DNA of 64,000 bases, taken from the NCBI RefSeq assembly GCF_041248615.1, contig NZ_CP158426.1, one strand, 5' to 3'. Of this stretch, positions 22,818 through 41,652 are shown piece by piece. The notes under the pieces were generated by a model. The model made no database searches, was not told the DNA's origin, and saw only the letters and a program-made list of their open reading frames with translations. A program made the position numbers and the translations under genes. Every line of letters begins with the position of its first letter. The first letter of the stretch is position 1. The DNA is from Escherichia coli. GTDB lineage: Bacteria > Pseudomonadota > Gammaproteobacteria > Enterobacterales > Enterobacteriaceae.

Positions 22818-23993
<1,176 letters not shown>

Positions 23994-39893: not shown

Positions 39894-41060
39894 TTGAAAC
39901 GCCGTCTTATTATTGCTGCTTCTTTGTTCGTTTTTAACTTATCGTCTGGTTTTGCGGCGGAAAACATTCCTTTTTCACCTCAGCCTCCAGAGATTCATGC
40001 CGGCTCCTGGGTATTGATGGATTACACCACCGGTCAGATCCTCACCGCGGGTAATGAGCATCAACAGCGCAATCCCGCCAGCCTGACAAAGCTGATGACG
40101 GGCTATGTCGTGGATCGCGCTATCGATAGTCATCGCATTACGCCAGACGATATTGTCACCGTGGGGCGCGATGCGTGGGCGAAAGATAATCCAGTGTTTG
40201 TCGGTTCTTCACTGATGTTTTTGAAAGAGGGCGATCGCGTATCGGTACGTGATTTAAGCCGTGGTTTAATTGTGGATTCCGGAAATGATGCTTGTGTTGC
40301 TCTGGCTGACTATATTGCCGGTGGGCAACGGCAGTTTGTTGAAATGATGAACAACTATGCCGGGAAGCTGCATCTCAAGGATACGCATTTTGAAACAGTG
40401 CATGGTCTGGATGCACCTGGCCAGCATAGCTCGGCTTATGATTTAGCCGTGCTTTCTCGCGCTATCATCCACGGCGAGCCCGAGTTTTATCATATGTACA
40501 GTGAGAAAAGCCTCACCTGGAACGGTATCACTCAGCAAAACCGTAACGGGTTATTGTGGGATAAAACCATGAATGTTGACGGCCTGAAAACGGGTCATAC
40601 TTCTGGTGCCGGGTTTAATCTCATTGCTTCGGCTGTGGATGGGCAGCGTCGTCTCATTGCAGTGGTAATGGGGGCTGACAGTGCAAAAGGTCGTGAGGAA
40701 GAGGCAAGAAAATTACTGCGTTGGGGGCAACAAAACTTTACTACGGTGCAAATTTTGCACCGTGGGAAAAAGGTCGGAACGGAACGCATCTGGTATGGCG
40801 ATAAAGAAAATATCGCCCTGGGAACGGAACAAGAGTTCTGGATGGTGCTACCGAAAGCCGAAATTCCACATATCAAAGCCAAATATACCCTTGATGGTAA
40901 AGAACTCACCGCGCCAATTAGCGCCCATCAGCGGGTAGGGGAAATTGAACTTTACGACCGTGATAAACAGGTGGCGCACTGGCCGCTGGTTACCCTGGAA
41001 TCTGTCGGGGAAGGCAGCATGTTTTCTCGCCTGAGTGATTATTTCCACCATAAGGCCTGA
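39894..41060 (+). CDS. dacD: D-alanyl-D-alanine carboxypeptidase DacD (PBP6b)
   Basis: Signal peptide then SxxK (ASLTKLM), SGN and KTG motifs; probable TTG start giving 388 aa. Confidence 0.88.
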   Translation: MKRRLIIAASLFVFNLSSGFAAENIPFSPQPPEIHAGSWVLMDYTTGQILTAGNEHQQRNPASLTKLMTGYVVDRAIDSHRITPDDIVTVGRDAWAKDNPVFVGSSLMFLKEGDRVSVRDLSRGLIVDSGNDACVALADYIAGGQRQFVEMMNNYAGKLHLKDTHFETVHGLDAPGQHSSAYDLAVLSRAIIHGEPEFYHMYSEKSLTWNGITQQNRNGLLWDKTMNVDGLKTGHTSGAGFNLIASAVDGQRRLIAVVMGADSAKGREEEARKLLRWGQQNFTTVQILHRGKKVGTERIWYGDKENIALGTEQEFWMVLPKAEIPHIKAKYTLDGKELTAPISAHQRVGEIELYDRDKQVAHWPLVTLESVGEGSMFSRLSDYFHHKA

Positions 41061-41144
41061 CCTTTCTTTTGCAGCAGACTGGCAGGAGTGCGAGTCTGCT
41101 CGCATAATCAACACTCATTCCTTGTGGTTTTAATATTGCAACTA

Positions 41145-41164
41145 TACTGTATATAAAAACAGTA
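41145..41164 (+). promoter_or_regulatory. LexA (SOS) box upstream of sbmC
   Basis: tactgtatataaaaacagta matches CTGT-N8-ACAG consensus, 15 bp upstream of sbmC start. Confidence 0.75.
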
Positions 41165-41178
41165 TTAATGGAGGCGTC

Positions 41179-41652
41179 ATGAACTACGAGATTAAGCAGG
41201 AAGATAAACGTACCGTTGCAGGTTTCCATCTCGTTGGCCCGTGGGAACAGACGGTAAAGAAAGGCTTTGAGCAGTTGATGATGTGGGTAGATAGCAAAAA
41301 TATTGTGCCGAAGGAGTGGGTTGCTGTCTATTACGACAATCCAGATGAAACACCCGCCGAAAAATTACGCTGCGACACCGTCGTGACGGTACCGAATAAC
41401 TTTACGCTCCCCGAAAACAGTGAGGGCGTCATTCTGACAGAAATTTCAGGTGGTCAGTATGCGGTGGCGGTGGCTCGTGTAGTCGGTGATGATTTTGCTA
41501 AACCCTGGTATCAGTTCTTTAATAGCCTCTTGCAAGACAGTGCTTATGAAATGTTACCAAAGCCCTGTTTTGAGGTTTATTTGAACAATGGCGCGGAAGA
41601 TGGGTACTGGGATATCGAAATGTATGTTGCGGTGCAGCCAAAACATCACTAA
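41179..41652 (+). CDS. sbmC: DNA gyrase inhibitor SbmC (GyrI)
   Basis: 157-aa [27 protein letters not shown] recognised. Confidence 0.92.

What the first reader, a model, noticed from the sequence alone, without database searches (positions are those of the whole stretch)
41145..41164. Canonical LexA box upstream of sbmC
tactgtatataaaaacagta matches the CTGT-N8-ACAG SOS box 15 bp upstream of the sbmC start, consistent with known SOS induction of the gyrase inhibitor.
Basis: partly seen in the sequence, partly recalled or inferred. Interest (0 to 1): 0.15.

Follow-up and report, generated by a model that had tools for sequence, protein, structure and literature searches.

The report
Known LexA operator of sbmC
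The 20-base palindrome just upstream of the E. coli gyrase-inhibitor gene sbmC is the textbook binding site for the DNA-damage repressor LexA, so the finding is correct but ordinary; in other genomes this same site is a repeated landing pad for two mobile elements.

Summary
TACTGTATATAAAAACAGTA lies at 41145-41164, and its last base is 15 nt before the sbmC ATG at 41179. The window is ordinary E. coli chromosome (sbcB, dacD, sbmC, yeeA).

- **Identity:** the 20-mer is identical to the K-12 sbmC site and to the K-12 umuDC operator.
- **Matrix score:** a matrix built from 14 other published LexA sites gives 26.1 of a possible 29.5 bits. The next best site in the window scores 13.1, and the best shuffle 18.9.
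- **Conservation:** a LexA-type box lies 14-24 nt upstream of sbmC in 77 of 80 Enterobacteriaceae species, with varying sequence.
- **Literature:** published data list sbmC as a classical LexA-dependent SOS gene.

Verdict: supported, already known, low interest.

One lead came out of the comparison. In other genomes this operator is a specific target of two unrelated mobile elements. ISKox3 sits in the centre of the box in 235 of 5,426 complete E. coli genomes. A 1.9-kb group II intron sits between box positions 19 and 20 in 7 E. coli genomes, and its 3' end abuts the same position in one Klebsiella michiganensis genome. Both elements target LexA boxes generally: 22 of 22 and 61 of 63 prophage contigs. 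I found no paper describing this. The window's site is unoccupied.

The parts
41145..41164 (.). LexA operator (SOS box) TACTGTATATAAAAACAGTA. Half-sites are CTGT 41147-41150 and ACAG 41159-41162; the spacer is 41151-41158.
   Evidence: 26.1 of 29.5 bits; identical to the K-12 sbmC and umuDC operators; positionally conserved in 77 of 80 species.
41142..41148 (+). Inferred proximal -10 element CTATACT (hexamer TATACT 41143-41148) overlapping the left half of the box. This would put the transcription start inside or just after the box.
   Evidence: Read from the sequence. The overlap of a TATACT/TATAGT/TACACT hexamer with the left half-site is kept across genera. The start site was not mapped here, and the consensus scan did not call this promoter. 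Inference only.
41122..41127 (+). Weak -35-like TTGTGG, 15 nt upstream of the inferred -10. Conserved in Escherichia, Citrobacter and Salmonella.
   Evidence: Inference only.
41170..41174 (+). Shine-Dalgarno GGAGG of sbmC.
   Evidence: GGAG is invariant in the 14-genus alignment.
41179..41652 (+). sbmC (gyrI) coding sequence, 157 aa plus stop: the regulated gene.
   Evidence: annotated sbmC in 5,417 E. coli genomes; 4 aa differences from K-12; Pfam GyrI-like.
39894..41060 (+). dacD, the upstream neighbour on the same strand. It ends 84 nt before the box, so there is no divergent gene that the box could serve.
41079..41108 (+). Conserved upstream block (core TGCGAGTCTGCTCRCATAAT, 41088-41108). 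It reads as a sigma-70-like CTGGCA-18-CATAAT and is a candidate distal promoter. Its role is unknown.
   Evidence: promoter-like match; near-invariant across 14 genera. A hairpin reading was tested and not supported.
41151..41158 (.). Unoccupied ISKox3 target. In other E. coli genomes this 8-nt spacer is duplicated on either side of a 1,316-bp ISKox3.
   Evidence: The same applies to LexA boxes in general.
41163..41164 (+). Unoccupied group II intron homing site. In other genomes a 1,909-nt intron lies between these two bases (box positions 19 and 20).
   Evidence: The same applies to LexA boxes in general, with EBS/IBS pairing and covariation.

Best explanation
The 20-mer at 41145-41164 is the LexA operator of sbmC (gyrI), the SOS-inducible DNA gyrase inhibitor gene of E. 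coli.

Mechanism: in undamaged cells a LexA dimer occupies the two CTGT/ACAG half-sites. The operator overlaps the likely -10 hexamer (TATACT) and the expected start site, and ends 15 nt before the ATG, so bound LexA blocks RNA polymerase. DNA damage activates RecA, LexA cleaves itself, and sbmC is transcribed.

What is shown here: the site, its near-consensus quality, its identity to the K-12 sbmC and umuDC operators, and its conservation upstream of sbmC across Enterobacteriaceae.

What comes from the literature: LexA-dependent induction of sbmC.

What is inferred: which promoter is used, and therefore whether repression works by occlusion or by roadblock.
For: Exact sequence and coordinates. 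Matrix score 26.1 of 29.5 bits with a matrix that excludes sbmC and umuDC; the next best site in the window scores 13.1 and the best shuffle 18.9. Identical to K-12 sbmC upstream and to the K-12 umuDC operator. The region is annotated dacD-sbmC and matches 5,417 of 5,426 complete E. coli genomes at 95% identity or more. A LexA-type box lies 14-24 nt upstream of the sbmC ATG in 77 of 80 species, with sequence turnover that keeps CTGT-N8-ACAG, which is a phylogenetic footprint. Literature: sbmC heterology index 2.8, 5.7-fold AZT induction, 9.5-fold lexA dependence (PMC11228462); top LexA motif among UV-induced genes (PMC3009722); Salmonella sbmC box and SOS expression (PMC8072944); SOS promoter reporter with an extra late peak (PMC5999292).
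Against: No binding or expression data exist for this particular strain. The transcription start is not mapped here, and the consensus promoter scan did not call a promoter overlapping the box. A conserved upstream CTGGCA-18-CATAAT block could be the real promoter or a second one; the box would then lie about +30 to +50 and act as a roadblock. One paper notes that no sigma-70 promoter is predicted for sbmC and suspects an alternative sigma factor. The CTGT-N8-ACAG core alone is expected by chance about once per two windows.
Confidence: 0.95

Rival explanations
1. The palindrome is mainly a promoter element (an AT-rich -10 and discriminator of a stationary-phase promoter), and its match to the LexA consensus is incidental.
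For: CTATACT at 41142-41148 resembles a sigma-S-type -10 (own knowledge of the consensus). sbmC is described as stationary-phase induced, with a second late peak and suspected alternative sigma use.
Against: A 26.1-bit match to a 20-nt matrix does not arise from a 6-7-nt promoter element. The right half-site ACAGTA is conserved across genera although it is not part of any -10. Published lexA-dependent induction. The two roles are not exclusive, and operator and -10 overlap in many SOS promoters.
Confidence: 0.03
2. LexA binds here but represses by roadblock of a distal promoter (CTGGCA-18-CATAAT, 41079-41108), not by occluding a proximal -10.
For: The distal block is the best promoter-like match in the region. 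It is more conserved than its surroundings across 14 genera.
Against: A -10-like hexamer overlapping the left half-site is also conserved. No start-site data were available. This is a variant of the main explanation, not a contradiction of it.
Confidence: 0.25
3. The site is a chance AT-rich palindrome with no function.
For: The core pattern alone is expected 0.48 times per window.
Against: Full-matrix score far above shuffles, identity with two characterised K-12 operators, positional conservation in 77 of 80 species, and published regulation.
Confidence: 0.01

Closest known systems
E. coli K-12 sbmC (gyrI) LexA operator
   Same: Identical 20-mer at the same distance from the ATG, with the same neighbours dacD and yeeA.
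   Different: Two flanking SNPs relative to MG1655 (41135 A instead of T; 41166 T instead of C) and four amino-acid differences in SbmC (E9D, G73N, Y74N, T90S). None lies in the box.
E. coli umuDC LexA operator
   Same: Identical over 21 nt (TACTGTATATAAAAACAGTAT) and likewise located just upstream of the start codon. Both operators are hit by the same ISKox3 and group II intron in other genomes.
   Different: Different gene and different upstream promoter context. umuDC has a recognisable TTGATC -35 (read from the sequence); sbmC does not.
sbmC operators of other Enterobacteriaceae (for example Salmonella, heterology index 6.32 at 21 bp, PMC8072944)
   Same: Same position relative to sbmC and the same CTGT-N8-ACAG architecture.
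   Different: Spacer and outer bases differ: CACTGTATATAAATACAGTG in Citrobacter and Salmonella, TAGTGTATAAATATACAGTA in Enterobacter. The distance is 15-22 nt instead of 14.
For the side lead: group II introns with structured or specific DNA targets (class C introns after terminators or attC sites; own knowledge) and site-specific insertion sequences
   Same: The intron recognises its site by EBS1/EBS2 pairing, as all mobile group II introns do. ISKox3 makes the 8-bp duplication typical of the ISL3 family.
   Different: The target is a transcription-factor operator, the LexA box. Two unrelated elements share it. I found no description of either specificity.

Membership tests
LexA operator (gammaproteobacterial SOS box) | Palindromic core CTGT-N8-ACAG within a 20-nt TACTG(TA)5CAGTA-like site | tested here: met
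   TACTGTATATAAAAACAGTA, both half-sites perfect.
LexA operator (gammaproteobacterial SOS box) | High matrix score or low heterology index relative to proven operators | tested here: met
   26.1 of 29.5 bits with 14 independent sites, higher than 13 of the 14. Published heterology index 2.8.
LexA operator (gammaproteobacterial SOS box) | Located in or next to the promoter of the regulated gene | tested here: inconclusive
   The box ends 15 nt before the ATG and overlaps a conserved -10-like hexamer. No start-site data, and the promoter scan did not call it.
LexA operator (gammaproteobacterial SOS box) | Conserved upstream of orthologous genes | tested here: met
   the best box lies 14-24 nt upstream of sbmC in 77 of 80 species, and 75 score at least 15 bits.
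LexA operator (gammaproteobacterial SOS box) | LexA binding, and LexA- and RecA-dependent induction by DNA damage | not testable with these tools
   Literature only: 5.7-fold AZT induction and 9.5-fold lexA dependence; UV-induced; reporter data.
SbmC/GyrI (regulated gene) | GyrI-like domain protein orthologous to K-12 SbmC, in the dacD-sbmC-yeeA context | tested here: met
   153 of 157 residues identical; PF06445, E=6.8e-33; synteny.
Mobile group II intron (side lead, other genomes) | 5' GUGYG, conserved domain I-IV structure, RT-encoding ORF, EBS/IBS complementarity to the flanking 5' exon | tested here: met
   GTGCG start. Rfam RF02005 at 184 bits, with EBS1 in the terminal loop. 495-aa ORF with RVT_1. 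EBS1 and EBS2 pair with box positions 8-19, with compensatory changes in two relatives. No separate Rfam hit for domains V/VI at gathering score, and no HNH domain found.
ISL3-family insertion sequence (side lead, other genomes) | DDE_Tnp_ISL3 transposase, terminal inverted repeats, 8-bp target duplication | tested here: met
   (Zn_ribbon_ISL3, HTH_Tnp_ISL3 and DDE_Tnp_ISL3). (1,316 bp; 8-bp duplication in 15 of 15 complete copies where a duplication was found).

The most novel reading that the evidence does not exclude
High-affinity LexA operators, including this sbmC box, may be dedicated integration sites for two unrelated mobile elements, and this specificity may be undescribed.

- **Group II intron lineage:** it reads box positions 8-19 by EBS1/EBS2 pairing and inserts between positions 19 and 20. 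That leaves the operator nearly intact and places the intron in the 5' UTR of SOS genes, so its own expression would become SOS-inducible.
- **ISKox3 (ISL3 family):** it inserts exactly in the operator centre and duplicates the 8-nt spacer. This destroys LexA control of sbmC in about 4% of complete E. coli genomes and also hits umuDC.

The window carries the empty site. The targeting itself is almost certainly real. The probability given is for it being both real and not yet described.
Probability: 0.45. Interest if true: 0.7.

Novelty: already known. Interest (0 to 1): 0.15.

Why it matters
The finding itself matters little. It re-identifies a characterised SOS operator in a non-K-12 E. coli strain and shows the annotation logic is sound.

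The by-product matters more. If LexA boxes are specific targets for a very common Klebsiella/E. coli plasmid intron (present in 4,281 of 72,556 PLSDB plasmids) and for ISKox3 (carried on IncX3 blaNDM plasmids), then acquiring these plasmids can rewire the SOS regulon of clinical strains. ISKox3 would uncouple sbmC and umuDC from LexA. The intron would tie its own mobility to DNA damage. Both ideas can be tested directly.

Tried and rejected
1. **Core pattern only.** CTGT-N8-ACAG is not significant in 64 kb (0.48 expected), so I used a full matrix instead.
2. **Consensus promoter scan.** It found no sigma-70 promoter overlapping the box, only a distal CTGGCA-18-CATAAT and two minus-strand matches. 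The proximal promoter therefore stays an inference from conservation.
3. **Conserved upstream block as an RNA or DNA hairpin (GCAGACT/AGTCTGC).** RNAalifold gave only -2.3 kcal/mol. Pair counts were no better than shuffles: 76% paired against 76.4%. Rejected.
4. **Other LexA sites in the window.** The best is 23464-23483 at 13.1 bits, below the shuffle maximum. Treated as chance.
5. **Primary papers.** Baquero 1995 and Wade 2005 are not held. I therefore could not take the mapped start site or ChIP data from them.
6. **The L002 junction.** I first took it for a simple intron insertion at sbmC. Its 5' flank is in fact a different LexA box from a prophage S24-peptidase gene, and dacD is absent. 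It is probably a rearrangement between intron copies. Clean insertions were then found in L010 and L011.
7. **Literature on the side lead.** There are no papers with 'group II intron' plus 'SOS box', none with 'ISKox3' plus 'LexA', and 24-41 with 'group II intron' plus 'LexA', none relevant by title. Absence from this library does not prove novelty.

Full report
**1. The observation**

The window reads tactgtatataaaaacagta at exactly 41145-41164. CTGT is at 41147-41150, the spacer ATATAAAA at 41151-41158, and ACAG at 41159-41162. A 157-codon ORF starts at 41179. It is SbmC/GyrI: Pfam GyrI-like E=6.8e-33, and 153 of 157 residues match K-12 SbmC.

The bare core CTGT-N8-ACAG is not more than chance in 64 kb. 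It is expected 0.48 times, and 40 of 100 shuffles contain one. The full 20-mer is far beyond chance, with no shuffle matching within three mismatches.

**2. Matrix score**

I built a position weight matrix from 14 LexA sites printed in PMC3009722 Table 4. I left out sbmC itself and the identical umuDC site.

| Item | Score (bits) |
|---|---|
| This site | 26.1 |
| Maximum possible | 29.5 |
| Next best site in the window (23464-23483) | 13.1 |
| Best site in 50 shuffled windows | 18.9 |

The site scores above 13 of the 14 training operators.

**3. Comparison with K-12 and with other E. coli**

The window is ordinary E. coli chromosome: gnd, ugd, wzzB, the his operon, yeeZ, yeeY, plaP, tsuAB, sbcB, dacD, sbmC, yeeA, tmaR, then a CP4-44-like island. 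The 221 nt around the box match 5,417 of 5,426 complete E. coli genomes at 95% identity or more.

The 20-mer is identical to the MG1655 sbmC upstream site. It is also identical over 21 nt to the MG1655 umuDC operator. Two flanking SNPs distinguish the window from MG1655: 41135 is A instead of T, and 41166 is T instead of C.

**4. Conservation across species**

A scan of one genome per species found 80 sbmC loci in Escherichia, Citrobacter, Salmonella, Enterobacter, Lelliottia, Kluyvera, Klebsiella, Raoultella, Atlantibacter, Leclercia and others.

- In 77 of 80, the best LexA-matrix hit in the 250 nt upstream lies 14-24 nt before the ATG.
- 75 of them score at least 15 bits.
- The sequence differs between genera while CTGT-N8-ACAG is kept. 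Examples are CACTGTATATAAATACAGTG in Citrobacter and Salmonella, and TAGTGTATAAATATACAGTA in Enterobacter. This is a phylogenetic footprint.

The three exceptions are informative:
- an Escherichia sp. with the box deleted and the gene truncated (L091);
- a locus with the best box 166 nt upstream (L086);
- Klebsiella michiganensis DSM 25444, where a group II intron 3' end abuts the position of the box (L087).

The second refutation criterion, no conservation, is not met.

**5. How it most likely works**

*From the literature.* sbmC is a classical SOS gene, with heterology index 2.8, 5.7-fold induction by AZT and 9.5-fold dependence on LexA cleavage (PMC11228462). It is UV-induced and has the top LexA motif among induced genes (PMC3009722). 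It is SOS-expressed in Salmonella (PMC8072944). It is used as an SOS promoter reporter, with an additional late peak attributed to stationary-phase control (PMC5999292, citing Baquero 1995).

*Inferred from the sequence.* A -10-like hexamer overlaps the left half-site. It reads cTATACTgt in E. coli, tTATAGTgt in Enterobacter and tTACACTgt in Citrobacter. Bound LexA would therefore occlude the -10 and the start site.

*Unresolved.* A strongly conserved block, TGCGAGTCTGCTCRCATAAT (41088-41108), reads as CTGGCA-18-CATAAT. It could be a distal promoter. The box would then lie at about +30 to +50 and act as a roadblock. I could not map the start site. A hairpin reading of that block was tested and rejected.

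**6. Verdict on the finding**

The site is already known, being the K-12 sbmC operator in another strain.

**7. What the comparison turned up: ISKox3 (other genomes, not the window)**

In one search, 277 E. coli genomes matched only one side of the box.

In strain APEC-O117H42 a 1,316-bp ISL3-family element, ISKox3, sits inside the box. It reads ...TACTGTATATAAAA|IS|ATATAAAAACAGTA..., so the 8-bp target duplication is exactly the N8 spacer. Its transposase carries Zn_ribbon_ISL3, HTH_Tnp_ISL3 and DDE_Tnp_ISL3 domains.

| ISKox3 junction | Complete E. coli genomes |
|---|---|
| sbmC box, orientation as in L001 | 73 |
| sbmC box, opposite orientation | 162 |
| sbmC box, total | 235 of 5,426 |
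| Identical umuDC operator, one orientation tested | 47 |

A scan of IMG/VR for the IS left end gave 22 contigs. In all 22, the 14 nt before the IS are (T)ACTGT plus 8 nt. In all 15 complete copies where a target duplication was found, removing the IS and one copy of the duplication rebuilds a full LexA box of 19.9-27.3 bits, at many different boxes.

ISKox3 is therefore specific for the centre of LexA boxes. Its insertion destroys the operator and separates sbmC from the inferred -10. One paper reports ISKox3 insertions in capsule genes under selection (PMC12057282), so the specificity is not absolute.

**8. What the comparison turned up: a group II intron**

*The element.* It is a 1,909-nt group II intron. 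Its features are:
- a 5' GTGCG start;
- an Rfam RF02005 match at 184 bits;
- a 495-aa RT ORF in which no HNH domain was found.

*At sbmC.* It lies between box positions 19 and 20, corresponding to window 41163|41164, in 7 E. coli genomes. L010 and L011 are clean dacD-box|intron|sbmC insertions.

*At other LexA boxes.* The same intron interrupts:
- the umuDC operator (L007);
- the tisB/istR box (L006);
- a plasmid box upstream of an S24-peptidase operon (L005);
- prophage boxes.

*In prophage contigs.* Of 63 IMG/VR contigs carrying its 5' end, 61 have positions 1-19 of a LexA box immediately upstream. These comprise 20 box variants and many different flanks, and the rebuilt sites score 22-29 bits.

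*How it recognises the box.* Rfam places GUACUGUU in the terminal loop where EBS1 is expected. ACUGUU pairs with AACAGU (box positions 14-19), and UGUAUA pairs with UAUA(A/C)A (positions 8-13).

Two relatives provide covariation:

| Intron | Identity to main | Target | EBS1 / IBS1 | EBS2 / IBS2 |
|---|---|---|---|---|
| Main | n/a | LexA boxes | ACUGUU / AACAGU | UGUAUA / UAUA(A/C)A |
| L126 | 73% | LexA box TACTGTATATCCATACAGT\|A | ACUGUA / UACAGU | UGGAUA / UAUCCA |
| L102 | 70% | Non-LexA site | GUUUCC / GGAGAC | GAGAUG / CAUCUU |

*Consequences.* In at least 17 of 28 distinct occupied sites, a ribosome-binding site and start codon follow 10-23 nt after the intron on the same strand. The intron therefore sits in the 5' UTR of LexA-regulated genes. 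After insertion the box keeps 19 of 20 bases and reads TACTGTATATAAAAACAGTG. That sequence is also a natural E. coli allele scoring 24.1 bits. LexA control of the gene, and by inference of the intron, should persist.

*Distribution.* The intron occurs in 4,281 of 72,556 PLSDB plasmids, 3,770 of them from Klebsiella. In the E. coli set it occurs in 215 of 5,426 genomes.

**9. Status of the side lead**

The targeting patterns are read directly from sequence and are strong. The following are inferences:
- SOS-inducible mobility of the intron;
- the way ISKox3 finds the box, whether through LexA-bent DNA or by direct recognition;
- the phenotypic effect on sbmC and umuDC.

I found no paper linking either element to LexA boxes.

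The window itself contains neither element. Its box is an empty site for both.

**10. Scores**

- **The finding as given:** already known, interest 0.15.
- **The most novel reading not excluded:** LexA operators as dedicated and so far undescribed targets of two mobile elements, probability 0.45, interest 0.7 if true.

Noticed in passing
window 41151-41158 (empty site); L001 4120-5435; L009 1-1178; L155-L176: ISKox3 (ISL3 family, 1,316 bp) inserts exactly in the centre of LexA boxes and duplicates the 8-nt spacer. It sits at the sbmC box in 235 of 5,426 complete E. coli genomes (73 + 162, both orientations) and at the identical umuDC operator in 47 or more. In 22 of 22 IMG/VR contigs the IS is preceded by CTGT+N8, and 15 of 15 rebuilt sites are full LexA boxes. 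No paper holds both 'ISKox3' and 'LexA'.
   Followed up: yes
window 41163|41164 (empty site); L010/L011 1192-3100; L005-L008; L087; L092-L154: A 1,909-nt group II intron (Rfam RF02005 type, 495-aa RT) inserts between positions 19 and 20 of LexA boxes. Occupied sites include sbmC (7 E. coli genomes), umuDC, tisB/istR, and plasmid and prophage boxes, and its 3' end abuts the sbmC box position in K. michiganensis (L087; 5' junction not seen). It follows a LexA box in 61 of 63 IMG/VR contigs. EBS1 and EBS2 pair with box positions 8-19, with compensatory changes in relatives L126 and L102. It is present in 4,281 PLSDB plasmids, mostly Klebsiella.
   Followed up: yes
window 41079-41108: The block TGCGAGTCTGCTCRCATAAT (reads as CTGGCA-18-CATAAT) is nearly invariant upstream of sbmC across 14 genera and more conserved than its surroundings. 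It may be a distal promoter or a regulator site. A hairpin reading was not supported.
   Followed up: partly
L002 1810-4030 (E. coli O68:H12 strain 97.3): The intron here has a prophage S24-peptidase LexA box (TACTGCATATACATACAGT) on its 5' side and the sbmC leader on its 3' side, and dacD is missing. This looks like a chromosomal rearrangement by recombination between two intron copies at different LexA boxes.
   Followed up: partly
L009 1-3100 (E. coli strain 81): ISKox3 and the intron occupy the same sbmC box: IS end|ATATAAAAACAGT|intron. If the IS arrived first, the intron needs only the right half of the box. The order of events is unknown.
   Followed up: no
L140 6088-11833: Four head-to-tail tandem copies of the intron follow one LexA box in an IMG/VR contig. 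This is either real tandem retrohoming or an assembly artefact.
   Followed up: no
L091 1358-1503 (Escherichia sp. MOD1-EC7003): The LexA box is deleted (ttgcaaACATACTGATTGGAGGCGTCATG) and only 82 residues of SbmC match. This is probably a decaying sbmC locus.
   Followed up: no
L010, L011, L002, L009: 3' exon bases +1 to +3 after the intron: Intron-occupied sbmC alleles read AAT, ACC or GTT where the window has ATT and K-12 has ATC. This may be ordinary polymorphism (the A20G variant exists in the unoccupied allele L012) or changes made during retrohoming.
   Followed up: no
window 23464-23483: The second-best LexA-matrix hit in the window is AGCTGGATAGCTATGCAGAA at 13.1 bits. That is below the best shuffled score (18.9), so it is probably chance.
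   Followed up: no
L004 (umuD) against E. coli genomes: 98 of 5,418 E. coli genomes have a split match at the umuDC operator. ISKox3 in one orientation accounts for 47, and at least one (strain 98190) carries the intron. The rest were not examined.
   Followed up: partly
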